DNA from: Mustelus asterias
Lineage: Eukaryota
Length of the DNA stretch: 64,000 nt
Direction: 5' to 3'
Assembly: GCF_964213995.1 (NCBI RefSeq)
Contig: NC_135830.1
Location: 10,974,001-11,038,000 of the forward strand
Below the pieces are notes generated by a model that saw nothing but the letters and a program-made list of their open reading frames with translations, ran no database searches and had not been told where the DNA came from. Made by a program: the position numbers and the translations under genes. Shown piece by piece: positions 24,151 to 55,238 of the stretch; position 1 is the first letter of the stretch, and each line of letters begins with the position of its first letter.

Positions 24151-24499
24151 TTTAGAGATCCCGAATTGTTGTAAAATAGACTGACAGTCTCTTTGTTCTC
24201 TGAAAATGTACTTTAATCATTTTTAGTTTTGCTTGCTCGCTAAGCAGTGTGGAAATAAATGGACTATAGATACAATGGAATTTGTTTATTTTGTGAAGAG
24301 ATTATGAATTACAATGTCACCATTCGAAATAATGAAGACATTACACTGAGTCCATTCAGCCAAACAAATATCAAAATACAGCTAAAATGTCCAGTTTAAT
24401 ATTAACCAAATGTAAATCTCGGAGTCCATTTTGTTGAGGGTGTGGAAAATAGGACCTGGATCCAGTCACCGCCTCCAGCAGGGAATCAATAGGCGGCGC

Positions 24500-24535
24500 C
24501 TGGGAAACCGCCCCCTTCTGCCGGGTATTTAAATA
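24500..24535 (+). promoter_or_regulatory. IgH V promoter (GGGAAA/GC box plus TATA-like TATTTAAATA)
   Basis: TGGGAAACCGCCCCC at about 24501 and TATTTAAATA at 24526-24535, about 90 bp upstream of the leader ATG; no octamer. Confidence 0.6.
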
Positions 24536-24624
24536 CCGTTCACTGGGACGGGAATCCAACAGTCCGGGAGCTGGTTTGTTCACTGAGTTTTTGACAAAAC
24601 CATTTCCTCCAAATGACAAGAAGG

Positions 24625-24670
24625 ATGAGCTCGGCGATTTCTCTCAGTTTGTTGCTGACTTTCTTATCCG
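24625..24670 (+). CDS. IGHV: IgM VH leader exon
   Basis: [15 protein letters not shown](G) followed by GTGAGT; in-frame upstream ATG at 24613. Confidence 0.93.
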
Positions 24671-27600
24671 GTGAGTAGTTGTTATTGTCCAAATCTCCCA
24701 CTGTTACTGTCTCAGTGTTATTCTATTGCTGGATTGTTTCAGAGTCAGGAATTATTTCCCCCGGATTAATCCTCGGGGTTTTTGATATTTTTACAGGTGT
24801 CCAGACGCAGGTTGTGTTCACTCAGCCGGAGGCAGCGACCGGGCGACCCGGAGATTTGGACAATAACAACTACTCACCGGATAAGAAAGTCAGCAACAAA
24901 CTGAGAGAAATCGCCGAGCTCATCCTTCTTGTCATTTGGAGGAAATGGTTTTGTCAAAAACTCAGTGAACAAACCAGCTCCCGGACTGTTGGATTCCCGT
25001 CCCACTGTAAAACCGGCGTCTTCCCTCTTTCTCACGCTTACATGTACTGGGTCCGACTCGTTCCCGGAAAGGAGCTGGAGTGGTTGGTTTTCTATCTTTC
25101 TTCCTCCAACAACAAGTACGCCCCAGGGATTCAGAATAGATTCGTTGCGTCCAAAGAGCTTTCAACCAATATATTCACTTTGGATATGAATAACCTGAAG
25201 AGCGAAGACACCGCCATCTATTACTGTGCATGGCAGACATCATTACCTGCGACGAATTTCGTCGACTTCTGGGGACCAGGAACCGCAGTGACAGTCACTG
25301 CAGGTAAGCGCATCGCATTTATTTAGTTACTGTTCTGCTTGAGTCTTTTAAAAATATTTTTCTCTATTTTGAAATGTCATTTGTTCACTGAAATGTGTGT
25401 TTGGTGGACACTGTATTGAGATTTGTTTTTACAATTGCATGTGATTCTGCTGAAAGGGGTTATAGAAGTGCGTTGTTTGTGGACAACGGGTGCTGCTGAC
25501 CTATCCGGTCCCTGACTGTTGTGACTTGGTGTTTATCTATGGGTATGCTTTGTGTCCGGGTTACTTTGAATATCTGTTAAACAGATTGTTGTTTCTACAG
25601 TGTGTCACCTCGGTGACGTCTGATTGCTACAGTTTTTCCGATCTAATGAAAACAGCAAAATGTTTAAATATGTTTTCAATATCACTGTCGTCAGAAATAT
25701 TTAGCAGTTAGATTTCTATAATCAAGTAGTTTTTGTGATAATTGGATTAGCATGTGTTAATATAACGCTCATGAATGCTCACATGCAATATTAAAAATCT
25801 CAACGCAATTAAAGGCTCTATTAGGTGCCCTTATTCAGATATACATTTATATAAAACTGCAATATCCATAATGCTCATGCTGTGGTTATATGATAAGATA
25901 TTAATAAATAATTATAATGTCACAATATTAGCTTGTTAAACATATTTCGTCGACTCACAGAAAGTAGTTGAGGACCAAAGATCGTATGTTTTCAAGAAGG
26001 AGTTAGATATAGCTCTTGAGACGAAAGTCATCAAAGGATATGTGGTGGGGGGGGGGGGAGGGGGAGGGGGGGAGGGGGGTGGGGAGGCGTTGTGGTAGGG
26101 ACCAGGAGTTGGGTAATCAACCATGATTAGACTGAAGAGCGTTGCAGGCTCGAAGGGCCGAATCATCCAATCCTGCTCCTGTTATCTTTGTTTCTGTGTT
26201 TTTCACAGTGCTGTCGCCAATATTCCCATTCTCTGTTATAAAAAAAAAATTATGATGTGGTGATGCCGGCGTTGGATTTGGGATAAGCACAGTACGAAGT
26301 CTCACAACACCAGGTTAAAGTCCAACAGGTTTATTTGGTAGCGTATGCATTCGGAGTATTGCTCTTTATTCACGTGAGTGAAGAGTTGCGTTCACAAACA
26401 GGACATACATAGACACAGACGCAATTTACAAGATAATGGTTGGAATACGAGTCTTTAGAGGTAATCAAGTATTGACGGTAGAGACAATGTTAGTGGAGAG
26501 AGGGTGAAGCACAGGTTAAAGAGGTGTGAATTGTCTCCAGCCAGGATAGTTACTGAGATTTTGCAAGCCCAGGCAAGTCGTGGGTGTTACAGATAGTGTG
26601 ACATGAACCCGAGATCCCGGTTGAGGCCGTCCTCATGTGTGCGGAACTTGGCTATCAGTTTTTGCTCAGCAATTCTGCGTTGTCATGTGGCGTGAAGGCC
26701 GCCTTGGAGAACGCTTACCCGAAGACGGGCATTCAGCCTCTGATTTTGGGTTCATGTCACTCGATCTGTAATCCCCATGAATTGCCTGGGCTTGCAAAAT
26801 CTCACTAACTGTCCTGGCTGGAGACAATTCACACGTCTTCAACCTGTGCTTAACCCTCTCTCCACTCAATTGTCTGTACCGGTAAAGACTTGACTACCTG
26901 TAAAGACTCGCATTCCAACCATGATCTGGTAAATTGAATCTGTGTCTGTGTATGCCCTGTTTCTGAACAAAACTCTTAACTCACTTGAAGAAGGAGCAAT
27001 ACTCCGAAAGCTTTTGCTGCCAAATAAACCTGTTGGACTTTTACCTGGTGTTGTGAGACTTCTTACTTTTTTGAATTATTCATTCGTTCTGTGACCAATG
27101 TCTGTCTGGCTGCTGCATTGCGATTTGCTTGTCATAATATATTTCATGCTGTTGGCAGTCTCCTTTTAGAATCATGTTGCTCCTCTTTGAAAGGGAATAA
27201 GGCAGTGGTTTGTTGTTTAGTTTTTGAAAAGTGTGTGCTCCGGACCTGCTTTGCATGATGAATGTTTGTGAAATTCTTTGGCGGTTATGCATTGTTTAAA
27301 GACAGTGACATGGAGCAGTTGCATATTTTCTGATCAAATGCAAATGTTGCACCTTTTTAAAGGCGATTGGTTGAATGAAAGGGGCCGGTTTCAGAGTGAA
27401 AAATTATGTTTTAAATGATGCCTCCATGCATGATTGAAATATTAGTGAAAATGGCATGTTGGATCATTAAGCGTTCATTTAGCACGTGATTTTGAATACA
27501 ATTACAATCTGTATAATTTGCAAATTGGAGAGTAAAATGAATTTAATTGAAACAATTAAAGTATGGTAAGTCTCTCAACGTTAATTAAATATGTAATTTT

Positions 27601-30600: not shown

Positions 30601-33600
30601 CATCACTGAATTTTGCCTCCTTATATGCTTTTTATCTTGCAACTTAATACTCTCCTTGGTTAACCATGGTTGGTTTATCCCTCTCTGAGATTGTTTCATC
30701 CTTTCTAGGATATATTTTTGCTGAGAGTCATTAATTGCTTCCTTAAATATCTGCACTACTTGCTTCTTATATTTCTGGCTAATTTATTCATCCAGTTCTC
30801 TTTAGCTAATTCTATCTTCATTTCATTGTCATTACTTTACTTAACTTAAACACAGTTGTTTCGGACCCAAATGTTTCACTCTCAAACTGAATATTAAATT
30901 CGATCACGTTTTGATCACTACTTTCTCGGGAATATCTTCGTCTGAGGTTATTTATTAAACTTGCCTCATTACCCCTTGGAAGATCGATAGTAGATTTTTC
31001 CCTGGTTGGTTCCATGACATTTTGCTCTCGGAAACTATCCATTAGGCACTCTCTGAGTTCGTTGTCCTAGCTTTCATTTCCAACCTGATGAGCCCAATCA
31101 ACATGAAATTAAATTGACCCATAATTATTGCTCCAATATATTTATATGCACTTACTATTTTCAAGTTATACCCTTTCCTATGGCGTGGCGACTGTTTGGT
31201 TGTCTATACACTACTCCCAACAATGTCTTCTTTCCTTGCTGTTTTTTACCTCCATCCAAATAAACAGGGATAACAGTGTCTAACTTGTGCAATTGATTTT
31301 TTGTTTTCGCAGCCTCACCGTCTCCACCCTCCCTCTATGGACTGTTCTCCTCCAGTGAACAAACAAACGCAGCTGGTACCATGATCTACGGCTGTTTGGC
31401 AATGGACTATTTCCCAGAAATCACTAGCCTTGTCTGGAAGAAAAATCAAGTGGCGATCACCACTGGATTGAGGACGTACCCATCAGTGTTAAACAACAAG
31501 GGATCCCACACGCTGAGCAGCCAGTTAACCATAAAAGAGTCTGATATAGGAAGCAGCAAAATTTACTGCGAGGTGCGACGCAGTGAGTCGGCCTGGAAAA
31601 AGGAAATGCCAGGTTAGTCTGAGACACATGCAGTGGATTAGGTGTTGGTGATTTTATGGGGGTGAATTGTAAGCAGACAGGTACTAATTCTGGAGTATAT
31701 GATTATGAATTGAAGGTCTGTATTGTGTGAAATCTGTGTACTTATACTTGGTTTACTCTGGATAATCCTACTTTCCTTGTGACATTCAGTGCAGTCTCCT
31801 CATCACACTCTGCACCATGTACTGTTCCGGTGTCCTCAACGCACACATGCACTGTGTACAGTTTCAGTCCCTTCGCATAGTCAGTGCACTGTGCACAGTT
31901 CCGGTCTGCAGATCACCCTCAGTGCGTTGTGTACAGGTTTGAACTGCAGATCATACTCAGTGCGTTGTGTAAAGTTCTGGACTGCAGATCGCTCCCAGTG
32001 AATTGTGTACAGTTCTAGTCTGCAGACCACACAGTGCCATGTGTACAATTATGGTCTCCAGATCACACGCGGTGCATTGTGTACAGTTGGTGCCTTCATG
32101 TCACACCTTGAATCCTATGTACAGTTGTGGCTTCCACATTGGGAAGTTGATACAGGGGCCATGGAGTAGATGCTTGCCTATTTACGATGAGACCAGAACT
32201 GATCATGTATAATATCAATAAGGGGTGAATAAGTTGTTGGTCTTTTCTCTGCAGAAGAGAATTCTGAGGTGTGATGAAATCGAGGTGGTCAGCAGTTTAC
32301 CAAAACTAGAGCTAATGGAGAAAACAGAATGATTTTAAACTACAGGTTAGCAATTCAGAAAATTACTCACCAAAAATGCAACCCGTCAAGTAACACTTGT
32401 AGCAGTTGGGGCGTTAGAAACGCAGAACACGTGGTTCGGAACAGGTGTAGGTCATTCAACCCCTCGAGTTTCCCCCACCACGTGACAAGATCATGGCAGA
32501 TTTGATTGCGGTCGAATAGGTCGATGCAGTTACATCGATGCTCTGAAGAGGAACCTGAACAGATGCATGAGGGAAAATGTAAAGAAAGTTATTTTGATAC
32601 TGCCAGATAAAGTAGGGCGAGAAGAATTTTGTATGGAGCATAAACTCTGGCATTGAAGTGATGGACCGAGTGATCTGCTTTACAGTCGTTTTGACAACCA
32701 ACCTACATTTTTTAATTGTTTGGCCTTTATCTTATGTTTGTAAATTGTTTGGTCTGCAACAAGATTAAATGCCAATAACATGTATTTTCTTGAAGATCGT
32801 GTGATCTATTATCCAACTGTAATCCTCACGTTGAGTTCCAGTGAAGAGATCACAAGCAGCAGACTTGCAACCTTCGTCTGTTCCATCGTTGATTTTTGTC
32901 CAAAGTCAATGACGGTGAAGTGGCTGAAGAATGGACAACCCATAGATTCAGGAATTGTAACCTCCCCCGCCTTTAACGTGAACGGGAACTTCTCGGCGAG
33001 CAGCCGGCTCACAGTCCCCGCTGGGGAATGGTTCAGAAAAGCGGTCTATACCTGCCAGGTCACTCATCAAGGGCTCACTCAAAATCGTAACATCAGCAGA
33101 TCTCAAGGTAAGAGACACAACCCTTGAAATTTGGGGTGATAGGGAGCGCCAATCTCAGTCACACGCAAGATTCTTATTGGAATAATGAAAGCAATTCCCA
33201 CCATTAATTAATTTCCTTTACAATCGTGCGGGTCCTTTTCCCTTCCAATGTAAAAGGAAATACAGTACATTCCTTTCTTACAGCGTCTTTACAAACATCA
33301 GGTTGTCCCAAAATACTCACAGTCTAATTTAGAGATGAGCTCATTGCAGTGTGGACAATTTAGCATCTCTCTGTTGTGGAGAAAACTCTCAGAAAAAACC
33401 TTTTGTTTCACTCCGTTTGTTGAGGAACGCATTTTGACGAAGAAACAATCAAATGTGTCGATGTTTTCCAGCGTTCTGTGTCTATTTTCCAGATTCCCGG
33501 CATCTGCAGTATTTCACTTTAATAGCTGAAAGACCTAGCCTGGTTTCCTTCCCATTGCCCTGGGAATTTTAATGTGACAACAACGAAGCCGATTTCGGCA

Positions 33601-36600
33601 TAATGTCTGATGTCAAAGTTGGCAATTGGCAGGATACAATACTTGCTCAATAGTACATTGCTGGTGCCAGCTCACTTTTCAAACATCCAGAAGGGAAGTA
33701 ACAACAGATCTTTCTGAATGGAATTCTTCTGTGTTCTGGATTCCATTACCTCACAGAATGAGGCGATGTTCTGTTCCAATGCTGCATGATGACTGAGGAT
33801 CGTGGGTTTCAGTTTTCCCCGAAATTCATTAGACGATATTAGATACCTGCAAACCTTTATTAAAATTGTCCATGATTCCACTTGCAATTTCTCACGTCAT
33901 TCCACTTCTGTGTTCAGTTTAAGCCCCAGCATGATAAGTTCACAGATGAAGCTTGCATTCCCTTGAGTATAAAAGATTAATGGGTAATCCACTCTGAACC
34001 CAAGCGACATTCTGTGAATTTCGCCTCAAATTCCCCAGTAATCGTCAAAGCAGCGTTTTCAAACTCCTCTCCCAAAGTGCTTTAAAATCGACTTTCACAA
34101 AATTGGTTTCCACCAGCAGTTTGCGTTGCAAAGCCATTCCAGTTATTCTAACCTACTCTTTCGAAGAAAGCTTAACAATGAATTCCGCATCCAGGTTTTA
34201 CATCGCTTTCTTTAGGATCTTTTTTTTTGTCTTTACTATTGTAAGAATTCTTCACAGTTACTTGTACTATCATTTTCCATACTCCATGAAAATGGCATGG
34301 AACGTTTGATTTACTTCCGTAGACTGCCTTCCCATCTTAAATCTTGTTACTGCGACTGTCTCTTCAGCTCAGAATAAGTTACCTGCTTTTCCCTTGAATT
34401 CCCCTGACCAGGACCTTGGTCTCTGTTCCGTTAACCTCAGTCTTTGTAAGACCTTCCCTCTGTCCTAATTCACCTGCTGCCTGTTCACTTTATCAGGTTC
34501 ATTGGGAAGTCTGCCTATTGCAGCCCCCTTGCCCTGTCCAGCTTTATTTTTCCCGTAGAGTTGATCGGCGTTCACTCCCCAGTGACCTATCTCCAACTTC
34601 TTTGGCTTCCAGTTAAATTAAAAACAAAAGAGACCCCTTCAATCTAAAAAGTGATTACTAAGCAACTGTCAGCTTTTCACGCTGTAACCATTCTAAGCAC
34701 AATAGAATCAGAGTTTGAATAGAAACCAAAATCCGCACACATTTGAACAACTCTGTCTAGCGTGCATCTAAATCTAGCTTTATGTTTCCTTGCACAGAAA
34801 GACGAAATTAAACGAACTTATTCCTGATCAGCTTGTTTCTAATCTTTACAGTACAGATACAAATCCCTTAAAACAGTACATTCCACTAGATGTGTTGAGG
34901 CTGGGACTCCTCCGTGATCCTTTCGCTGCCTTGTTTATCAAGAATCTGTCTTGCTGTGCCTTAAAAATATTAAAAGACACTGCTTCCACTGCATTTTCAA
35001 GAGGTGTTCCAAATAATCGCGACCCTCTGAGAGAATAAAAAAAACAATATCCTCATCTGTGCCTTAATCAGCAACCCTTTGTTTTCACACAGTAACTCTC
35101 AATTCTAGAGTCTCCCACAGAGTCAGGCATTTCCTCCACATCAATCTTCTCAAATCGCTCAGGATATTCAAGGTTTTAATCAAGTCAACTCTTACTATTC
35201 CAAAATCCAGTGAATGCAAAGCTCGCCCTTCCAATGTTTCCTCAAAAGACAGCCCACCCAATTTAGGTATTAGTCTAGTAAACCGTCCCTGAACTATTAA
35301 TCACACGTTAACATAACTCTTTATATAGGGAGACTAATAGTGTACACAATGCTCCAGATGTGGTCTCACTAACTGCCCATACCACCTGAAACTTAACAAT
35401 CCTGCTCTTGGATTGAATTCCACTCGCAGTCAACGAAAACAGATATTACATTTGCGAATTAGTTACTATAGCTGCATAGCAGCCTTTTGTGATTCATGCA
35501 CTTCGAAATTAAAATTCATCTGCACCTCAGAGCTCTACAATCTGGTAACATTTGAATAACATGTATCTTTTTATTCCGCCTGCCAGAATGGACAATGTCA
35601 TTGCTTCCCACATTGCACTCCATTTAACAAATCTTAGCCCACTCACTTAACCTATCTATATGTTTTTGTAATCTCCTTACCTGCTCGGCATAACTTAGTT
35701 TTCAACCTATAATTGTGCCAGTAGCAAATTAAGCCACCACCACTTCAACACGTTCATCCAATTCACATGCAATTTCCAACATATTTGGACCCCAGCAATG
35801 GTCCCTATGGTGCACGACTCTTTACACCTTGCCAAACACGAATAGACGAATTGATGCCAACTCTCTTTCCTGCTTGATAGCTAATCTTCTATCTTTGCCA
35901 ATGAGTTATCCCCGAAATAATAGGCTTTAATTTTACGCAAAACCATCTGGAGCTCCAAGTACAGCACATTCGCCAATTTCCAGTTATTCAGGGACTACAG
36001 GGACTACAGGGAATGGATGTGGTAATGGGACAAGCTGCCTTTCCAATCTCTGACTTCAAAGGCAAAAGCTTTAGAAGGCTAAATAGCTACCTTATTTAAT
36101 GTAATCATACGATGATCCTTTAACCCCTGATTTTGGGGCGAGCGAAATTCAGCCCGAAACATAAGTGCTCATAAATCCATTCCATTTGTTACACGGGACA
36201 TTTATTTCAGTGATTCAACTGGCGCTCTGGGAGCAACTACGCAGGAAATATTATGGAGTTTCCCGGAATTGTTCTAAGTCACTGTCCTTCAAATAAGAAT
36301 GGCGTTTACGCGATACCAGGCGAATGAGTATAACAAATATGTATTCCCATTGAAAGTGAGTTAACTGAACACCGGTGATTTGAATCTGAAGATAATGTTT
36401 GGATTAATTTTCGTTTCTGTTTGACAGGTGATTCTACGTGCAGCGATCCCATAATCACTCTGCTGCCTCCGACAATAGAGCAGGTTTTACTGGAGGCGAT
36501 CGTGACCTTAACCTGCATCGTGGCTAATGCTCCTTATGGAGTCAAGGTGTCCTGGAGCCAAGAAAAGAAGCCTTTGACGTCAGAGATTGCAGTCCGGCTT

Positions 36601-39600
36601 GGAGAGGATCCAGAAAGCGTGGGCAGCCACTTAAGCATCTCGACACAAGCTTGGCTGAGTGGAGCTGTGTTTGACTGCTTGGTGAGCCACGAGGATCTGC
36701 CGACTCCTTTGAGAAAATCCATCTACAAGGAAACAGGTGAGCGGCGAAACTGAAGCAATAGGTCATGCATTTTGTCTGTTTACGTTGCCAATAAAAGGAG
36801 AAGCTTTCCGATGGACTTGATTGATTTAGTGGACAAATTAGATGTGCCAACTTGTACTTCCTTCCACTGAGCGCTGTGCGACAAAAGGTGATGAATTATA
36901 GGGAAATCAAGATAGGCATATGAAACAGAAAGGAATGACAGGATTTGCTTACAAGATGGAAAGTGGCTGGTGTGAATAATAAATGCCAGCATTGAACAGT
37001 TGGGCCGAATGACATGATAAAAACATACAAACATACAATGCCAGTTTCCAGTTCAACTCTAGAATTTCTCAGGGAGAAGGAATTCACCCGCTCAGCTTGA
37101 AAACAGAACAGTCACCAGAGGGGAATATGGCAATGTTTTGTATTTTGCTGCAAAGCATGTTTCTTTCATCTTTTGTCTCAGGAATTCTCCAGTGTGCTTA
37201 CATCTAATGAACATTTTCTGCAGATCCAAATCCGCTGAAACCGTACGTCTCTGTCCTCCTGCCCTCGGCAGAAGAAGTCTCCGCTCAGAGATTCGTCTCC
37301 CTCAGCTGCTTAGTGAGAGGTTTCTCTCCCAGAGAGATCTTCGTCAAATGGACCGTCGATGACACGCCGCTGAATCCTGAGAACTACAAGAACACCGAGG
37401 TGGTGGCGGAGAATGGCAATCGCTCATTCTTCATGTACAGCCTGTTGTCCATTGCAGCAGAGGAGTGGGACAGCAGCACTTCTTATTCCTGTGTGGTGGG
37501 ACATGAAGCCATCCCTTTGAAGATCATCAACAGAACGGTTAATAAATCCAGCGGTAAATCGTGTTTTGTGAACATTTCCAATTATTCTCAATGAGAAACT
37601 CCATATTGCATTTCCGACGTTAAAAAAATAAAATCATTTTGCTCTACTTGTGTGTTAAAATACATCAGACGAATTACTTTTGTTTCCCATATTTGTCAAG
37701 GGGAGAACTGTTAGGTTAAAGTAGGATAGTTGTCAGACTTATGCCCCAGTCTTAGAGAGCCAGTTCGCCAGATTGAGATACAACACTAAGCGGACACGGC
37801 TGATGGTTAGTAAATCCGTGATTCCACTGAGTAACTTCAGCAACATTCTTCCAGTTGCTGGGAGATGTGAAAAAGTTCAATTTCCGAGAAATAAATGCAT
37901 AAACTTTCAGTACAAATATCTCATTTCTAGTTTTTTGTCAATCCCATCAAAGTATTAAAACTAAAGTGAGAACTAAATAAGAATAGGAACCTGAATTATA
38001 ATCCCAACTGCAGATGTGGGAAATGACAATTTAAACCCACTCTGCATTGACTTCACCAACAGACAGAGAGAGGGAAAAGAACAACTGTTAACTCATTATT
38101 ACTCTGCAGAGAGGAGAAAGGGCAATTCTTAACCAACGATGCACAGACTCGGCAACCGCTTACTACCCTCTGAACTCAGTTACCATTGGCATCAAAATGG
38201 GCTTCCATCTCACTGCCTGAAGATTTAAAACCTGCTTCATGGGAATCATGTGCAACATGCATATGTATGCAGCACAACATAATGCAAACATTTCTGGTTA
38301 CATTTGTCCCTCCTAATCATATGATAAATTGAATTTGAATGACCCAATAATTCACTGGTGATTGGATCCTACCAGTTGCTTCTGTTTTTCCACTTACATT
38401 CCGAGGGCTGCTGACTGAACTGTTAATTTCATTCGGCTAAAATCACATTACAGCCCGCATTGAAATATATCTATGACCAGAAAAAGGCAAGTATTGCAGT
38501 AACACAAACCGACAGGGCCACCTTGAGTTCATAGTGCTCGCCTAAACTTGCAGGAATAATAGAAATGCTCACATACTGACACAGGCATACAAACAGACAG
38601 ATACACCGACAAATACATCTCCACAAACACACTCAGACTCAGGAGCAAACACAGCCGATAATATTAATAACCCATCCCCTCTCATGAATTCAAACACATT
38701 CATGTTAAAACTGTTATATAAAGTGACACAGACATGGACATACATGCACGTACATCAAGAAATGCGGGCATTCGTAAATACAAGCCAGCATGTATTAATA
38801 CATTCACAGGCCCAAACAGAGACACAAACATGAGCATGCTCGCAGATACAAGAAAACAAACACAAGTAAAGATACCTCCTAGCACACCGAGATACATTAA
38901 CATTCACCAACACGTACATATAGACATTCATGTACATAGAATATCAAGCGCACACATGAAGACAGAAACATTAAGATGCTCACTTACACAGCGATACACA
39001 AATTGTTCCATAACCATAAGCACTAACACATGATCATATCAGCCCACCTCATTAGGTACATTAATACAGAAGCATAGACATTGATACATAAACGCACCCG
39101 ATAAACACTCACTTGCTAACAATGATAAGCACACATAAAAACTGACACATTAGCACACACGTGCATGCATAGCGATTAATAACTACAAAATACACTTATT
39201 AATGAAGGCAAATAAATGCACATAATATACCTAATTTTCAGATAAACATGTACATTATCTTTCATACTCCCGTATGTTAGAACAGAACTTGAGCATCACT
39301 GAACAAAGAGATATGTCACAGACATCTTGCGCTCAGCAGGACATTCACACGACCACCAAACATATATCAATTAATGATAGTGGTGAGTGTGGCGCACCTA
39401 ACGCCATAAAGTTGCATACATTGAAACTCAGAGCCCTATTCTATTGAGACAGAAAGAACATGTACACGCGTTGTGTCTTTCCTCTGAACAAAATAGGCGA
39501 CAGCCGTGCTCAGGTTCATTTCTCAGAGTCAAGCTGCCTGGTTTGAATTTAAACAAAACATGGTAGTTAACATTGAGTCAACATTTAGCTACTACATTCA

Positions 39601-41492
39601 CCTTGGAAAATCTCTACCCATCGGAGTCCATTTGCCAACCAATCAACACTCTCTTCTTGTTAAAAATAACTTGTAATCCCCTTCACATTTTGTAGTCCTA
39701 CGATTGCAAACACTAAAGCCCAAGCAGTCAGGAACGTCAGGCAAGAGGTGGCATTTAATTCAAAGTGTATTTTTAATGGGCACATTCTGTAAAACCTGAT
39801 TCTAATACATGTTGGTCTGTCAAAGACGGAACCATGTTCTCCTTCAGAAACCTAGATAAGTTAATAATTTGCCCAACACAAACGAACCAAAAATATAACT
39901 CATCTGATCATCATGGATAATATTTCACAGTAGTAACCTGAATTTTTCTCAAAAATTGTAAATCGTAAGAACATAAGACTTTCTTTCAGGACTAGACCAT
40001 AGACGCAATGTGCAATTCTTCAGCATTCAATAGAATAATGTCGGATATTGGGTCTCACTGCAATTTCCCATCCATTCCTCATATCCTTTGATTTCTTGAA
40101 AAAAATCAAAGATACATCTACCCTACCCCAACCAACGAATGTGAAGAATTCCCAAGATTCAAAACCACGTTTGAAAGAAAGTCTCCTCATCAGTCCCAAA
40201 CGACGCTCACACATCAAAAGACTGCACCCCCGTTTTTTGTTTTGCATTCGCCGACCAGCAGAAACAGTGACTGCCCTGTCAAACCCCTTCCGATTATTTG
40301 GTGTTTCAACGAGGGTTTTCTCACATTCTTCAACATTCGAGAGAATGTAGACCTAATTTATTCAACTCAGCTCAGTTAACTTCCCTCGCTTAGTCTTCAG
40401 AATATATTTGCTGATAGTCGGTACAAAATTAAAGCAGACTAAAAGAGCGTCTGACAATGAAGATAATGCATAATATTTTCGAACATAGAACATGAAATAA
40501 ACTCGGAGGTGCAGTTAGTAACATAGATATATTGCTGAGAATGATCAGTTAACGACAGATATATATTTTAAGTTGCATTAACTGATTAGATTATTAACAA
40601 ACAAACTTTAAAGATGACATTATAGAGCAAAATAATACCTGAACGAATATAAAAGTGAGAAAATCAATTTAAAAACGAAGGTAAAAGATAATACCAGTAT
40701 GACATCATGCATTAACAAATCAGTTAACGGTCTCCTCCTCGCCAACTCCACAGATTCCACGAACACAAGCTGGATTGAAGACAATGTGGATTATAACGGC
40801 AACATCTGGACAACCGCTTCCACATTCATCGTCCTGTTCTTCCTGAGCATGTCCTACAGCGCTGCAGTCACTCTGATGAAGGTGAGATGACCAATCTACT
40901 CACATTTCAAACTGAGAGAAAAATGGCGAAATGTTTTATTGATTAAAAACTCTAAATGTCTCAGATCATTAACATTTGCTTCAATATGTTATCTCTCTTT
41001 TACAGATCAAGTGATCGGTTGAATCTTTGGCCGCTGTTGATTTCCCTGAGCTGATTATTAAGATCTCTGTATAGCACCAATTCAAAGAGATAATTCAGCC
41101 CATTGAGTCTGCTCCGATTTACCAATAGAGCATTTACCCATCCCGATCCCCGTATTTAATTCCCCTAACCTGCACTAACCATGTCCAATCCACTTAATCT
41201 GCACACCCTTGGACTATGCGAGGAAACCCATGCAGTCACGGGGAAAACGTGCAAATTCCACACAGACAGGCACCCGAGCCTGGAATTGAACCCGAGTCCC
41301 TTGGTGCAGTGAAGCAGCAGTGCTAACGGCTGTGCCACCGTGCCGCCTTGATGATTCAATCTATTCACATTTCTAACTGACGGAAGCGGTTTGAAACATC
41401 TCCACAAGTCTTAATTGATAAACAACCTTTAGCTAAATGCTTCAAACACATGAAAAGTTTGCTCTTTTTTTCCTATTTTACAGGTCAAGTGA
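24625..41492 (+). CDS. IGHM: Immunoglobulin mu heavy-chain gene, germline-joined VDJ. Secreted form join(24625..24670,24797..25303,31313..31612,32796..33107,36428..36736,37224..37594); membrane form uses the 37553 donor, 40754..40881 and TM2
   Basis: All exons are open with GT/AG sites and compatible phase-1 junctions; sequences closely resemble shark IgM; the V carries a 51-codon in-frame insertion, so function is uncertain. Confidence 0.9.
24797..25303 (+). CDS. IGHV: Joined VH-D-JH exon with inverted insertion
   Basis: [19 protein letters not shown]-[51 aa insert]-[65 protein letters not shown], then GTAAGC; no RSS between V and J. Confidence 0.95.
24850..25004 (-). repeat. Perfect 155-bp inverted duplicate of 24544-24698
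   Basis: Base-by-base reverse complement, no mismatch found. Confidence 0.97.
26250..27066. mobile_element. Penelope-like fragment with long inverted terminal repeats in the J-C intron
   Basis: About 320-bp arms (about 26283-26610 vs about 26745-27066) around a minus-strand GIY-YIG C-terminal remnant homologous to 18900-19030. Confidence 0.8.
27955..28690 (-). mobile_element. CR1 LINE 3' fragment
   Basis: ORF 28213-28527: [40 protein letters not shown]. Confidence 0.9.
29825..30160 (+). mobile_element. tRNA-derived SINE (SacSINE/DeuSINE-like)
   Basis: Same family as 60178-60510. Confidence 0.7.
30160..31260 (-). mobile_element. Degenerate CR1 LINE ORF2 fragment
   Basis: ORF pieces [36 protein letters not shown] resemble the CR1 endonuclease/linker. 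Confidence 0.8.
31313..31612 (+). CDS. IGHM: IgM CH1 exon
   Basis: [58 protein letters not shown]; 300 nt, AG/GT flanked. Confidence 0.95.
31820..32130 (+). repeat. Degenerate approx. 37-38-bp tandem repeat (about 8-9 units) in the CH1-CH2 intron
   Basis: Recurring GTGTACAGTTC..CTGCAGATCAC..CAGTGC.TT units. Confidence 0.8.
32796..33107 (+). CDS. IGHM: IgM CH2 exon
   Basis: [50 protein letters not shown]; 312 nt. Confidence 0.95.
34890..35950 (-). mobile_element. Old degenerate CR1 LINE fragment
   Basis: Reverse-complement similarity to CR1 RT and 3' end (e.g. tgtacacaatgctccagatgtggtctcac). Confidence 0.65.
36428..36736 (+). CDS. IGHM: IgM CH3 exon
   Basis: [58 protein letters not shown]; 309 nt. 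Confidence 0.95.
37224..37594 (+). CDS. IGHM: IgM CH4 exon plus shortened secretory tail
   Basis: [60 protein letters not shown]|[13 protein letters not shown]; internal donor G|GTAAAT after 37553; AATAAA at 37627. Confidence 0.95.
40754..40881 (+). CDS. IGHM: IgM transmembrane exon TM1
   Basis: [42 protein letters not shown] with the conserved antigen-receptor TM motif; CAG acceptor, GTGAGA donor. Confidence 0.95.
41006..41014 (+). CDS. IGHM: TM2 exon candidate A (IK*)
   Basis: Polypyrimidine tract + TACAG|ATCAAGTGA. Confidence 0.6.
   Translation: MK
41070..41348 (-). mobile_element. HE1-like SINE
   Basis: Reverse complement of the GGCGGCACGGTGGCACAG.. head and core. Confidence 0.85.
41484..41492 (+). 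CDS. IGHM: TM2 exon candidate B (VK*)
   Basis: Polypyrimidine tract + TACAG|GTCAAGTGA gives the canonical KVK tail; AATAAA at 41821. Confidence 0.75.
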   Translation, partial: VK

Positions 41493-43912: not shown

Positions 43913-44375
43913 ATGAGTTCCCTAGCTTCCATTCTGATAATAATTGTCTTTCTGACCGGTAAGTCATTACTTAAATGGGCAGTGTGTGTTTCCTGTAATA
44001 TCTTCACTCCCAATTATTTGATACATTCTGTGCTTTGTTGCAGGAACAAATGGTGAAGATTCGGTGTTCCAGAATCAATCTGAATCATCGGCACTGGAAG
44101 GACAGGGCGTAATATTGGACTGTAAATACTCGACAACTGTTCTCTTCTGGTACATCCAGCATCACGGGAAGGCTCCGAGATATTTGATAAAGATATACAG
44201 CTGGGGGGATATCAAAACACCTCGAGATTCCCCAGACAGGTTATCGGCTGCTTTTCACAAAGGAAACAACACAGCCCCCTTAAATATCGCTGGAACTCTT
44301 CCCTCCGACAGCGCCGTGATTTTTTGTGCCATGAAGCTACTGCTGCAGAGATGTCGCGGATGCCGTACAAAAACC
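43913..44375 (+). pseudogene. TRAV: TCR alpha/delta V segment 1 (leader 43913-43958, V exon 44044-about 44337): open frame, RSS heptamer destroyed
   Basis: MSSLASILIIIVFLT|GTNGEDSVFQ..LDCKYSTTVLFWYIQHHGKAPRYL..SDSAVIFCAMK; nonamer ACAAAAACC at 44367; heptamer CAC deleted relative to V2; short CDR1. Confidence 0.85.
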
Positions 44376-46978
44376 CCAGACTGGGAGTTCAAGTTAGCGA
44401 TCAGCAGAGTGCGCTCTCACACTGATAATCTGAAACATTAACTGTGAGCGTCACAATGACATTTTATAATTTCAAGTCAAGGCTCAACAAGGAGCTGAGA
44501 GTCACGTAATTAATTAAACTAGTTGATTCAACTCACATCTATGTGAAAAAGGTCTCAAATTAAAGTGTGATTCCCCAATTTATATTTTGTTTTTTAAAGT
44601 TTTTCCCAATGTCTGAATTATTGTATAGTTCCTTCCCCATCACTCCTTCAGTTTCTCAGTCCAGTTGATCACAGCGGTGCAGAGAGTCTATTTGATAAGA
44701 ATGTTGTGTTTGCTCGCAGACAATTATTTTTAAAATGAACCAATGGTCTTTGTCGTTTGGAGCATCATTTTTCAGCTTTAATGTTTTCTGACATCTTTCT
44801 CAGTCCAGAGTTTCTGTCTTATAATAACACAAAAACACCGGAACACCTTCCCCTTATAAGGACATTAGTTATGTTTTTCCACTCACTCACACTCATCTCA
44901 CCACACAGGGAAATGTGAATAAACGTGTTTCACATTTTCTTTCAGTGCCCAAGCATAGATTGAATCAGAAAATTAAATTCCTCACGGTCTTACTTTTTAC
45001 AACCACAGAACTTCGGTCACTGTCTGTCCTCCGATGTTAAGGCAGGAGTCAAGGCTGAGACTGAACGCATGATACTGCAATGAAGTTTCATTGTTTATTC
45101 TGGTACCCGGGTGCACAGGCGTTGATTATGTGGAAAAGCTCAGTGGTTAAATTAATATAAGGAAGATTTTGCTAAATCATGCCTCCCAGTTGTATCAATC
45201 TACCAGTTTAGCTTCCTTTTCGGCTTCTCATTGATTGTTTATTCCTTTAAAACCAGGGTTTGATGTTGCGGTCAACTCAGGGAAAGGGGTTATTGACATA
45301 GTAAACCCAGACTCTGTTCAGCTCATCTTCACCCACACAACGCAGGCCCATTGTGACCTCACTCAGACTACTATCCCCATTGGCTTTAGCTTTGGTCTCA
45401 CGGGACTTTGCGATGGCCAGGCTCGATCGTGGAGACGTCCCCTGGTGGATTCAGTACAGTTTGGTTAAAAATGGGACTTTTGAGTGGATTTCTGATGTAT
45501 TAGGTTACATATCAAAGCAGAAATGTCAGACAATGTCTTCCAGTGATTTAAATTGGAGCTAATTATACGCTGTCCTCGTTGTTTTTCCTGTTAAGCCAGA
45601 AAGTCGTACAAACCCGCATACATCATCGTTTAACGAAACCAAGGGCTCTGTGTGCAATCTTGGGGAAGACGATTAGAGCGAGGGTAATGACATTGGAAAA
45701 AGTGCGGAGGCACCACACCAGAATAATGACAGGGTTGAGGGATAGCGATACAAATGGATTAAGCAAACTGAAATTGTTCCTCTTATACATTCTTCTGGAG
45801 TTCTCTGCAAAGAGGCAGGTCCTACCCAAAGCGTGATGAACTGCACAGCGCAAAGGACAAGCAGGCAGGTTTGAAATACACCACAGCCCGAATTGGAATA
45901 GGGCTCTGTGCTCCTGCAACAACCTGTCCTCTGTTCAAACCATTCCAGCGGAGCAGTCCGAGTTGCCGCGGCAAATTTGACTTTTTCATCCATGTTATTG
46001 TCTGGAGTTATGGAAAGTAATGGCTGAGGCTCCAATAAATATCCTTGGCTATCAGGTACAGGCTTTGGAATTCAAGCCGAAGTTTCTGCCTCAGAGGCAC
46101 AGACGCTAGCCACTGTGACACAGGAGTTCATCTCCGAATATCAAAGGAGGTAAATGAGAGACTGAACTGAGGTGCTCAACATCATGTGGTTTTGTTAAAG
46201 TAGATCGCATGCGACAGTTTTCGCGGGCAGAACATCGGAAAGCACAAGCGCCTACATTAGGAAGGGGAGAGGGCAATGTAAAGTTTAGATTAATTGATTA
46301 CTCTGGATTTGCTAAACTTGGAAGATGGTCATAGAAGTCACAAGGTGGTCATAAAAGTTATAGGATCCCTACAGTGCAGAAGGAGGCGATTCGGCCCATC
46401 ACGTCTGCACCGATTCTTACCCAGGCCCTAACCATGCGGTGCCTAAAGAGATGGCGGAAGAAGAGATAACAGTAAATTTCAGAAGGGAAAGAGAGATAAG
46501 TTGAAATCAGAAAAATGCCCGTCACTGTGAGAGATGCGTGGTTTGAAAGATGAATTGAAGAATTATGTCAATTCTGAATTCTGTCAGGCAAAGATACCAT
46601 GGGCCGAGTGGCCTCATCTCATGCACTGATATTTTGTTCATGTCCCTGGCCCAGTTATGCCCCTCCCTCTATCTTTCTTCTCAACCACTTGAACAGTGAG
46701 CAGGTGCAGAATGGAGAAAGATTCCGGAGATGGAAGTCTCGCTATTTCCATTTCGGGTGCAGTTGAAGCTGCCGCATACTTCACGCAATATTTTGTCTAC
46801 TGCATCCCCGCCCACGACGTCCGTTTTCTGCGCTCACTCTGAGCCTATTGTGTGATTGGACAGACTGCTGCCGCTGCTCCATTCCTCTCACTGGTTGGAT
46901 CAGCAGTGCAGTGGGACAGTGTATTTCTGTCTCTGACAGGATTTCTCTCACTGCAGAGTTAGAGACTCAGGAAGCATC

Positions 46979-47517
46979 ATGGTGAACTAACTCACTCCGA
47001 ACCTCATCATTATCTCACTTCTCAGTCGGTATTTTCTTCCCAGTAAAACTACATGCTCCTCCTGACTGCTGTAACCCAAATATTTTTGTTGATTAAAAAA
47101 AATAGTGATGATGATAATTGTATCGTTTAATCTGAGGCTAACTCTGATTGTCATATTGCTGTTGTTTCTGTTAGAATGGAGCCACCAAGGCAAAGTGGAA
47201 CAATTGGATCCTATTATCAAGGTTAAAGAGGAAAATGATGTCACACTAACCTGCGCTTGAAAACAAGCGATTACAGCCGTTATGTGTACTGGTAGAGTCA
47301 GCAGCCCGGGAAAGCTCCAGTGTACATGTTTCAGCTTATTGGAGAGAATGTGCAAAGGAACACCGAACTCAATGATAGGTTTTCTTCCGAATTTCATAAC
47401 ACGAACAAGACTAGCGAGCTAACGATCAGTAAAACACTGATTTCCGACCGCGCCGGGTACTTCTGTGCCATGAAGCCCACACTGCTGCAGAGATATAGCG
47501 AATGCCGTACAAAAACC
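46979..47517 (+). pseudogene. TRAV: TCR alpha/delta V segment 2, pseudogene
   Basis: Leader disrupted; exon from 47175 KVEQ..VTLTCA*, frameshift, YVYW*SQQPGKAPVYM..RFSS..YFCAMK; RSS CACACTG-24 bp-ACAAAAACC (47478-47517). Confidence 0.88.
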
Positions 47518-47550
47518 CCACACTGGCAGTTCCAGTTAGTGCCCAGAAGG

Positions 47551-47561
47551 GTGCGCGCGCG

Positions 47562-47596
<35 letters not shown>
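47551..47596. repeat. (GC)n(CA)n microsatellite
   Basis: gtgcgcgcgcgcacgcacacacaca... Confidence 0.95.
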
Positions 47597-47598
<2 letters not shown>

Positions 47599-48269
47599 GT
47601 AATTCAGTTTCCACAGTGAGAGTGACGGAGATTCTTAACATTGCAACAAAAGGCGAGACTCAAAAACAGCAACTGGTGTGGTCCAGTTGCAGTTACATTA
47701 GTTGATGGTCGGAACTTACATTTGCATTTGAAATAAGATTGACAAATCGATCTGAGATACTTCAGCACCTTTTGTTTTCGTTTTCGATGCCCTTCTCTGC
47801 CTATTTGTTCCAGACTGTCCTTGTCTGCTGATTTATGGAAATTGTGCACATTTCCTTTCCCAGTCTTTAACGTAAACATGAAAGCTTTCTCTGTTACCTT
47901 GTACATTAATTCAGAACCTCGTCAATCTGGCTGCTCAGCTATTCGGTCCCATTTTCCATCCACATCACTGATGAGGATTTGGCTTTGTATTGAATCACTT
48001 ACTAACCCGATACTCCTGGTGCAAGAATCCTGGTCCGCAGTATGGAATGGACATTCAGCTGCCTCTCATATAGAGAGGCAAAGTTATCGTATTCCCAATT
48101 TGACATTGTTATTGAGTTCAGCTCCTTGCAGATAAATCCTAGCTGTACCATACTGCCTATGGTAGCCCCACTCAGTTTTCCTGTGCTGTTCGCACTCTGA
48201 CCCGTCTCTCCTGTGCTGTTTTCTTGGAGATTTCATTGGAGATATTGATCTTTGCTACTTTTCTCTGTT

Positions 48270-48885: not shown

Positions 48886-49818
48886 ATGTGTCTTGTTACT
48901 CTGTATTTATTCCTCACAGCGGCAGCTCTGTTAATCGGTAAGTTCACAAGTTGCTCACTCTGTGTTACACACCATTACCACACACTGTATTCTGCCGGGC
49001 GGTTCGCTCAATGCAAGGGGGAGAGGGTGGGTGATCAGGGAATGGATTGATCACAAAATCGAAAAGTTATCTGGATCTCGCTGGTCTCAACATTGAACAC
49101 TGTTGGGATTGGGCACATTTCCCCCAGTGATTGATAGAGAATGAGTTGGGCTCATATTCAAGCTCCTCTGATACCAGTGAATGACTTTGGTAAACATCAC
49201 ACTTCAAACAGACTGACCGTGAGCAGTTTTCAGTAACAGGGACTGAAGTCGAGGAACTAACCCCGTTAGAAAGAGCAGAATGTTTATGGTGGAAGTTTTA
49301 CTTAATCGCCACAAATACCTTCCCATTCCAGCCACTGAACTGAGAGAAATATGTTTTGTTTTGCTGTCTGATTTCTCTCTGAGATTATTCTTGCCGATAA
49401 CGCGCAAATTCTGGGCGAAACTTGGTGAAGTCACAATGTTTAATTTAACATTCCTTTGGATTCTTACAGGACATTCCAGAGGAGATTCTGTTTCACAGAC
49501 AACGGCTACAGTCACCGTCACTGAAGGAGATGATGTTAGGTTGCTCTGTAATTACAAAGCTACAAACAACAACCTTTATCTATTCTGGTACCGTCAGTAT
49601 CCCAGCGGATCCATGGAGTATCTGCTGCAGACAAATAAATAGACCGGTAACACAGGGAGATCCCAGGGTACCGTTTGTCAGCGGAGCTCAATGATACAAC
49701 CCGCACCGTACCGCTGAAAGTTTCTAAAACAGAGCTGACAGACTCCGGGATGTATTACTGTGCACTTATATCGTGGGACCACAGTAGTTGAATCTCCCTT
49801 AACGCCCGTGCAATAACC
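48886..49818 (+). pseudogene. TRAV: TCR alpha/delta V segment 3 (leader 48886-48937, V exon 49470-49779), pseudogene with a 23-RSS
   Basis: MCLVTLYLFLTAAALLI|GHSRGDSVSQ..LLCNY..YLFWYRQYP..QTNK*, frameshift, RLSAEL..TELTDSGMYYCAL; RSS CACAGTA-23 bp-GCAATAACC; CRE-like TGACGT and CCAAT boxes upstream. Confidence 0.9.
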
Positions 49819-54230: not shown

Positions 54231-54852
54231 CTAAGTGCCAGCTGATTTGTCTTTATCCATCGACGGACTTTTCTGCTAAACCCGTGTCTGGCAAATGGTA
54301 ACAAAGAGCGAAAATAATTAATTAATTTCATGTAATAATAAATTGTGAAATTGATCAACATATCATTAGGTAGCTAAGTAGAGAGACAGAAATCCAGGGG
54401 ATATAATCAGTAAATTCGCAGACGACAGAAAAAGTGGTGGTGTGGTAAATGGAGAGGAGGAAAGCCTTACATTATAGTATGATACGGAGGGTAAATGGGC
54501 AGAGCAATGGTCAAATGGGCAGAGCAGTGGAAAATTGAAATTTAACTCTGAAAAGTGTGAGATAACACATTTTGGGAGGACTAACATGACAGGAGAATAC
54601 AGCGAAGTTAATGAAATCCTGCATGGAAGGAACGTTAAACTTCTAACTATGTGTTGTACTTTTGTGAAATAGAGAAAATCAAATATAATTGGAGTTTGTT
54701 GGGAAATGGTTTCGGGGAGAGGTGCAGTTGCATTTTCCTCCTGCAACTTGAATCCGAATCTATAGTCAAAACACCAAGCAAGACAATAAAGACTTCTGGC
54801 ATTACTGTTCCCACGAGAGTAACAGATATGTTTAGCATCTGCAACGACAGTG

Positions 54853-54912
54853 TCACCCCCACTGATGACAGGCTGATCCTTGGCACTGGAACAAAAGTCA
54901 CTGTGGAACCCA
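54853..54912 (+). pseudogene. TRAJ: TCR alpha-type J pseudogene
   Basis: TPTDDRLILGTGTKVTVEP (F>L); donor mutated to ATAAGC; weak RSS. Confidence 0.8.
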
Positions 54913-55238
54913 ATAAGCACCCTCGCAAAATGTAACGATGAAGCACTGCGGACGCAGAAAATTTGAACATTATTTACTGCGAATAAAATTCACATTTGTA
55001 AAGTGGATAGAAGTATATGTCATATGGAGCTAACAGGCTAGAAGAAGGAATTGCATTTAAATTGGTGGATGTGGGGAAATATGTTTCTGTCAAGATCTCT
55101 CCTGTCCTGGCTATTGAAGTCAGCAGAATCTGAAATTGAACTCAAAACTCAAAGTCAGGAGAAATAAAATATGAATAAGTCTTATATTTCGGCTCATCTG
55201 GTTCGGTTTAATTTTTTGTCGCATTGTGTGCAGATGTG

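What the first reader, a model, noticed from the sequence alone, without database searches (positions are those of the whole stretch)
24544..25004. Perfect 155-bp inverted copy of the gene's own 5'UTR, leader and splice donor inside the V exon, frame preserved
Seen: 24850-25004 is the exact reverse complement of 24544-24698, with GGAG microhomology at the left junction. It replaces about 6 FR1 codons (expected GSLRLT-like) with 51 stop-free codons just before the first Cys. Inference: a very recent template-switch event. The transcript would fold into a perfect stem of over 100 bp covering the start codon and the leader splice donor, probably self-silencing the gene. It could also yield dsRNA/siRNA complementary to similar leaders of other IgM clusters. 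Any protein made would lose V strand B.
Basis: partly seen in the sequence, partly recalled or inferred. Interest (0 to 1): 0.8.

Follow-up and report, generated by a model that had tools for sequence, protein, structure and literature searches.

The report
Backwards copy in shark antibody gene
A shark-type antibody gene carries a perfect back-to-front copy of 151 bases of its own start pasted into the antigen-binding exon, which a near-identical twin copy in the same genome lacks; it is likely a recent DNA-repair or copying scar that is predicted to fold the RNA over its start codon and so likely disables this one copy.

Summary
The gene is a germline-joined VDJ IgM cluster of a cartilaginous fish. 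New here: the genome holds a twin copy (99.6% over 111 kb) without the insert, which gives the pre-mutation state: 151 nt replaced 16 nt (GSLRLT), with 4-nt microhomology on the left and a blunt right join. A public run shows the right junction at about one copy per two promoter copies, which argues against a read artefact or a rare B-cell clone; the left junction lay in a coverage hole. Best reading: a one-off templated inverted insertion (switch order 3-2-1-4) giving a likely null copy. A 106-115 bp stem is predicted to bury the 5'UTR and AUG even after splicing. Splice blocking is uncertain. Silencing of other IgM clusters is possible on sequence but unlikely. No RNA evidence exists. Whether the twin is the other allele or a paralog is unresolved. 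The class is known, and this scan noted similar scars on other genomes. This one is long, exonic and cleanly resolved.

The parts
24526..24533 (+). TATA-like box; transcription start inferred about 24556-24565
   Evidence: sequence; start distance from general knowledge, not measured
24544..24698 (+). arm 1 (template): 5'UTR, leader exon, splice donor, first 28 nt of the leader intron
24613..24670 (+). leader coding exon; ATG at 24613 (only this gene and its twin among 5 aligned) and conserved in-frame ATG at 24625
24671..24796 (+). leader intron, GT..AG, identical to the twin
24696..24704 (+). 9-nt word identical to the word across the right junction (25000-25008); possible extra template step
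   Evidence: about 4% by a rough null
24797..25303 (+). germline-joined VDJ exon with the insert, open frame, J donor at 25304
24850..24853 (+). 4-nt microhomology (GGAG) at the left switch point
24854..25004 (-). 151-nt inverted copy of 24544-24694, replacing 16 nt present in the twin
31313..31612 (+). C-mu 1 exon (C1-set), open, splice sites AG/GT
32796..33107 (+). C-mu 2 exon
36428..36736 (+). C-mu 3 exon
37224..37594 (+). C-mu 4 exon with a shortened, altered secretory tail (same in the twin)
40754..40881 (+). transmembrane exon

Best explanation
One copy of a germline-joined IgM heavy-chain gene carries a 151-nt inverted copy of its own 5' end in place of 16 nt of the V exon, likely made in one step by microhomology-primed template switching during replication or break repair, and the copy is likely a null allele because its RNA is predicted to fold over the start codons. 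Inferred steps: the 3' end at 24853 annealed through GGAG to the opposite-sense template 159 nt upstream (or folded back on its own strand), copied back to 24544, and rejoined the V exon 16 nt further on, either bluntly or through one more short template step. The scar has no evolved function. The hairpin would block ribosome loading and scanning in cis, and any protein would lose most of V strand B. The intact twin and the many other IgM clusters would cover the loss.
For: Shown: ancestral state in the twin, with 16 nt that cannot be derived from the insert and that encode the framework found in 19 of 19 other V sequences aligned (19 of 29 other loci given). Switch order 3-2-1-4, left microhomology 4, right 0; this order with its mirror made 31% of high-confidence human-chimp events (PMC5453318, passages). 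One primed end plus one end-joined end is the pattern of yeast foldback insertions (PMC11724301, abstract). In run X1 the arm piece (depth 41.9) forks at 25004 into a promoter contig (28.7) and a junction contig (24975-25227, 0 differences, 28.2), so the junction carries about 13, one copy per two promoter copies. Predicted: pre-mRNA -323 versus -101 kcal/mol for the twin; spliced RNA -250 to -264 versus -66 to -70, start codons unpaired with probability at most 0.001 versus 0.43 and 0.06. AlphaFold2 gives pLDDT 58, with residues 1-43 and 52-65 under 50. Unique in the assembly.
Against: No RNA or protein evidence for silencing. The frame is kept and stop-free, which has a prior of about 3% (9% x 1/3) or 18% given the left switch point, and the copy ends just before an in-frame stop on the template: a hint of selection for an open frame, from one ascertained event. 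The left junction was seen in none of the runs laid (4 runs, 4, 5 different); 24842-24865 had no cover at all, so the twin's form was not seen either. The right junction is bridged by 30 letters on its left, one short of the tool's own bar of 31. X1 may be the assembled individual, so it is not independent. The structure model lacks its control, and its insert had no alignment depth.
Confidence: 0.72

Rival explanations
1. The insert copy acts as a hairpin-RNA gene: the stem is diced into small RNAs that lower the twin and other IgM clusters in trans.
For: All 91 21-mers of the exonic stem match the twin; 9-25 of 91 match each of 28 of 28 paralog loci, longest perfect run 27-40 nt. No premature stop, so no obvious nonsense-mediated decay. 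Promoter region is 99.75% identical to the twin. Template switches have made miRNA hairpins in primates (PMC10710096, abstract).
Against: A long hairpin expressed in mice was poorly processed to siRNA in somatic cells, caused no silencing in trans and was well tolerated (PMC3245926, abstract); sharks untested. Family-wide IgM knock-down would likely be selected against. The paralog matches lie largely at the leader end and donor. No Rfam match.
Confidence: 0.06
2. Assembly or read artefact (foldback chimera or consensus error); the real gene equals the twin.
For: Perfect arms; the left junction was not seen in any run laid; only 1 of 5 runs shows a junction; 18 of 30 V loci have a partner at 99.3% or more, so the assembly may keep redundant copies.
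Against: The right junction stands in X1 contigs at about 13-fold depth, and the arm depth is 1.46 times the promoter depth, as expected for three arms per two promoters. A random foldback would not recur at one base, delete 16 nt, use a microhomology and return to the forward strand.
Confidence: 0.07
3. The insert was kept because it leaves an open frame: the gene makes a heavy chain with a 51-residue insertion in framework 1, in germline or in an expanded B-cell clone.
For: Open frame at a prior of about 3-18%; C-mu 1-4 and membrane exons open with intact splice sites; the lineage has V dN/dS about 0.6-0.8 against paralogs with no stop.
Against: The stem covers the whole 5'UTR and both ATGs even after splicing; framework residues of strand B are lost and the model is poor; depth fits a constitutional copy, not a minor clone.
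Confidence: 0.1

Closest known systems
Short-range template-switch mutations, four-point model, type 3-2-1-4 (PMC5453318 passages; PMC7954356 passages)
   Same: Switch points in the order 3-2-1-4 within one locus; a perfect inverted repeat made in one step; a few bases of identity at a switch point.
   Different: 151-155 nt copied, against median 12 and maximum 128 in the great-ape gold-standard set (that method may under-call long events); lies in a coding exon, where such events are depleted.
Templated foldback inverted insertions at double-strand breaks (PMC11724301 abstract); polymerase-theta templated insertions (recalled)
   Same: One microhomology-primed end, one end-joined end, small deletion at the site.
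   Different: Yeast events are mostly 5-34 bp and adjacent to the break; here the template starts 159 nt away. The enzyme cannot be told from sequence.
Germline-joined IgM clusters of cartilaginous fishes, including nurse shark IgM1gj (PMC4279169 passages; PMC2193156 abstract)
   Same: Fused VDJ in the genome, cluster of leader, VDJ and C-mu exons; divergent V.
   Different: Four C-mu exons, whereas IgM1gj lacks C-mu 2; altered secretory tail; the self-complementary insert.
Endogenous inverted-repeat or hairpin RNA loci that silence related genes (plant endoIR-siRNA, PMC10827316 passages; Drosophila hpRNA PMC10317233 and maize Mu killer PMC3440606, search listings only; snapdragon niv-525 and rice lgc1 recalled)
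   Same: Inverted copy of a gene's own sequence inside its transcription unit, with sequence matches to a gene family.
   Different: Those have shown small RNAs or silencing in organisms with efficient RNAi; here nothing is shown, the stem is shorter, and the host is a vertebrate B cell.

Membership tests
Short-range template-switch mutation (four-point model) | Inserted segment is the exact reverse complement of nearby sequence | tested here: met
   155 of 155
Short-range template-switch mutation (four-point model) | Ancestral state known and explained by four switch points in an observed order | tested here: met
   twin gives the ancestral 16 nt; order 3-2-1-4
Short-range template-switch mutation (four-point model) | Arose at a replication fork rather than in break repair | not testable with these tools
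   both routes give this scar; the deletion and blunt right join fit end joining as well
Germline-joined IgM cluster | VDJ fused in genomic DNA at constitutional copy number | tested here: met
   same joint in two assembled copies; X1 depth over the joint 23.6-28.2, like the flanks; a run labelled as another organism (X3) holds 25087-25247 with 1 difference
Germline-joined IgM cluster | C-mu exons and membrane exon downstream | tested here: met
   four C1-set exons and a TM exon; C4 91% identical to other clusters
IgM1gj (nurse shark) | Lacks C-mu 2 | tested here: not met
   C-mu 2 exon present and open; definition from PMC4279169
Hairpin-RNA / endo-siRNA locus | Long perfect stem within one transcript | tested here: met
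   predicted only: about 140 bp unspliced, 106-115 bp spliced
Hairpin-RNA / endo-siRNA locus | Transcribed, and diced into 21-23 nt RNAs | not testable with these tools
   no RNA run was available to lay
Hairpin-RNA / endo-siRNA locus | Lowers target transcripts in trans | not testable with these tools
   only sequence complementarity shown
Known RNA family (miRNA or other) | Match to an Rfam model | tested here: not met
   0 matches at E up to 1 in 24400-25400

The most novel reading that the evidence does not exclude
A single copying error has turned a germline-joined antibody gene into a B-cell hairpin-RNA gene whose small RNAs target the leader shared by the whole IgM cluster family: a natural, heritable RNAi knock-down of a vertebrate antibody gene family caught at birth, with its unmutated twin beside it as a control.
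Probability: 0.06. Interest if true: 0.8.

Novelty: new member of a known kind. Interest (0 to 1): 0.3.

Why it matters
As a likely null copy in a family of dozens of clusters it has little biological weight. Its value is as a clean specimen: before and after states sit in one genome, the copy is longer than the great-ape gold-standard events, and it falls in a coding exon. It shows one way in which shark Ig clusters can die. The pair is also a ready-made test of what a perfect stem over a 5'UTR, AUG and splice donor does in a non-mammalian vertebrate B cell. If small RNAs were found, it would show in-trans control of an antibody family arising in one step.

Tried and rejected
No RNA holder listed; this says nothing on expression. 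X2 (same sample as X1), X8 (another sample) and X4 (another organism) showed no junction, but they did not cover the V exon right of it at 96% likeness, so they are uninformative. X3 shows a joint 24853 to 25110 with unknown letters between; not used. Allele versus paralog: collinearity runs from 49.8 kb in the window to at least 120 kb upstream, and a probe 274 kb upstream has its mirror copy at about 100%; probes 574 and 974 kb upstream have none at the mirror place among 40 listed hits; no N gap lies in 604 kb fetched; 18 of 30 V loci have near-identical partners. Left undecided, about even. A RAG cut at a cryptic signal in the deleted 16 nt was considered by eye against the recalled consensus: a heptamer-like word but no nonamer at 12 or 23 nt; rejected. 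Identity with IgM1gj rejected (C-mu 2 present). Protein searches gave only unnamed shark Ig proteins at 57-67% and PDB antibody V domains. The control structure for the twin was not obtained, so the model has no baseline. Earlier scan notes by place and by sequence: none. Four fetched probes (L102-L105) were not used. Paper searches for a like case in Ig genes listed none by title or abstract start; the library lacks most subscription papers, and no supplements were read.

Full report
Observation. The two arms are exact reverse complements over 155 nt and cannot be extended (one search finds the same pair). Arm 1 starts about 10 nt after a TATA-like box and covers the 5'UTR, the leader exon, the donor and 28 nt of intron. 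Arm 2 lies in framework 1 of the V exon. Spliced, the frame is open from leader to J.

The gene. It is an IgM heavy-chain cluster of a cartilaginous fish: leader, one fused VDJ exon (V-set), four C1-set exons and a membrane exon, all open with AG/GT ends. The nearest named proteins are unnamed catshark Ig proteins at 57-67%. Such germline-joined clusters are known and are expressed mainly early in life (PMC4279169 passages; PMC2193156 abstract). It is not IgM1gj, which lacks C-mu 2. Its V differs from seven paralogs by dN 0.18-0.23 and dS 0.28-0.31, far more than they differ from each other, so the joined lineage is old and has stayed open.

The twin. A search of the genome with the V exon's 3' part found two 100% places among 40 scored: the window and G000:C71:4.728 Mb on the minus strand. 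The twin has the same VDJ joint and no insert: 16 nt (GSLRLT codons) stand where the window has 151 nt. It is identical for 363 nt left and 345 nt right of the insert, 99.75-99.95% over the 6 kb upstream, 97.3-99.3% over the C region, and 99.58% over 111 kb further upstream. The shared block is at least 320 kb and did not show at 574 kb. This fits either the other haplotype placed in the same scaffold, making the insert heterozygous, or a young inverted segmental duplication. For a duplication: both ends continue without a gap into different sequence. For an allele: the identity level, and 18 of 30 V loci with near-identical partners. I could not decide. Direction is clear: the twin's 16 nt match the framework of 19 of 19 other V sequences aligned and cannot be made from the insert, so the insert is derived.

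Is it real? Five runs were laid, all as contigs. In X1 a 37-nt arm piece at depth 41.9 ends at 25004, and two contigs start from the same 30 letters: one runs into the promoter (28.7), the other into the V exon with 0 differences over 253 nt (28.2). The surplus of about 13 is what three arms per two promoters give. That fits a constitutional copy and not a stray foldback read or a minor B-cell clone. Limits: the bridge is 30 letters on the left, one short of the tool's bar; the left junction and the twin's form both fall in a hole (24842-24865) in all 4 runs; X1 contigs mix window and twin letters and may come from the assembled animal; the other four runs do not show a junction and mostly do not cover it. 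Each junction occurs once in the assembly, and 1 of 30 V loci has this arm pair.

How it arose (inferred). Switch points: leave at 24853, land at 24694 on the opposite sense through GGAG, copy to 24544, return 16 nt past the leaving point; order 3-2-1-4. That type and its mirror made 31% of high-confidence human-chimp events (PMC5453318 passages). The great-ape set has median 12 and maximum 128 nt and is depleted in coding regions (PMC7954356 passages), so this one is long and unusually placed. The right join has no microhomology; one primed end and one end-joined end is the pattern of yeast foldback insertions (PMC11724301 abstract). The 9 letters across the right junction recur at 24696-24704, at the landing point. 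This would allow one more short template step (5-nt then 4-nt overlap). In a null over 7,995 alternative junctions, 301 of the 7,213 left after dropping 782 trivial cases reach 9 letters (4%), so it is a hint only. Replication slip and break repair cannot be told apart.

What it would do (predicted). The unspliced RNA folds to -323 kcal/mol, z -28, against -101 and z -0.05 for the twin. After splicing a 106-115 bp stem remains from the assumed 5' end through both ATGs, -250 to -264 against -66 to -70. Structured 5'UTRs near -70 already mark mRNAs that depend most on unwinding during scanning (PMC6887119 passages); that stable cap-proximal stems block initiation is recalled textbook knowledge. 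The donor is another matter: in a co-transcriptional fold it stays as open as in the twin until the transcript reaches about 24881, 84 nt past the acceptor, so splicing may win the race. If protein were made, core residues of strand B are replaced, and AlphaFold2 gives pLDDT 58 with the N-terminal 43 residues under 50 (no control, no alignment depth for the insert).

The open frame. Of 1,347 antisense frames of 151 nt from this region 122 are stop-free (9%); with frame keeping, about 3%. Given the left switch point, 732 of 4,100 alternative ends are in frame and open (18%).

Silencing in trans. All 91 21-mers of the exonic stem match the twin and 9-25 match each of 28 paralog loci. But a long hairpin in mice was poorly diced outside oocytes and did not silence in trans (PMC3245926 abstract). 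Template switches have seeded miRNAs in primates, with a preferred stem of 35 bp (PMC10710096 abstract and opening text); this stem is three to four times longer. No Rfam match. I give this reading 6%.

Novelty. Four searches listed no report of a self-complementary insert in a germline Ig V exon, within a library that lacks most subscription papers. The mutation class is well described, and this scan has noted similar scars in other genomes (unchecked notes). Verdict: a real, very recent templated inverted insertion that likely kills one copy of a joined IgM gene; new member of a known kind; interest 0.3.

Noticed in passing
G000:C71:4.70-5.01 Mb versus 10.70-11.02 Mb (window 12617-49768 and upstream): An inverted near-identical block of at least 320 kb, 99.6% upstream but 97-99% over the C region, with a 99.75-99.95% patch just upstream of the V: haplotype pair, or duplication with gene conversion.
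   Followed up: partly
window 37554-37594 and twin L052: The secretory tail is shortened and its end differs from 5 of 5 paralogs translated, losing the penultimate cysteine; homology stops at 37579. The joined gene may make only monomeric or membrane IgM.
   Followed up: partly
window 44022-44441, 47296-47619, 49247-49770, about 54850-54935: V-set segments that look like T-cell receptor V genes and a J-like segment lie just downstream of the IgM membrane exon (the TCR label is my reading). 54560-54960 has four copies at 99-100% in the assembly.
   Followed up: partly
window 25257-25370: Runs X1 and X2 hold a 535-nt contig (depth 6 and 4.6) whose end matches this J and intron with 2 changes and 2 gaps but whose rest does not; no such locus was found in the assembly. 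It may be an unjoined or differently joined relative.
   Followed up: partly
window 25087-25247: Run X3, labelled as another organism, holds this stretch across the VDJ joint with 1 difference, so the joined gene likely predates that split.
   Followed up: no
L015:1430-1798 (G000:C166): A second, different germline-joined VDJ with an open frame.
   Followed up: no
window 26291-27067: A degraded inverted-repeat element (186 nt at 87% and 125 nt at 90%) in the J-C intron, likely a foldback-type repeat.
   Followed up: no
window 24524-24537: The TATA-like box sits in a perfect 14-bp palindrome in this gene and its twin, broken in 3 of 3 paralogs aligned.
   Followed up: no
L022:420-525 and 2619-2725: A 107-nt inverted pair at 94%, about 2.1 kb apart, around another V locus.
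   Followed up: no
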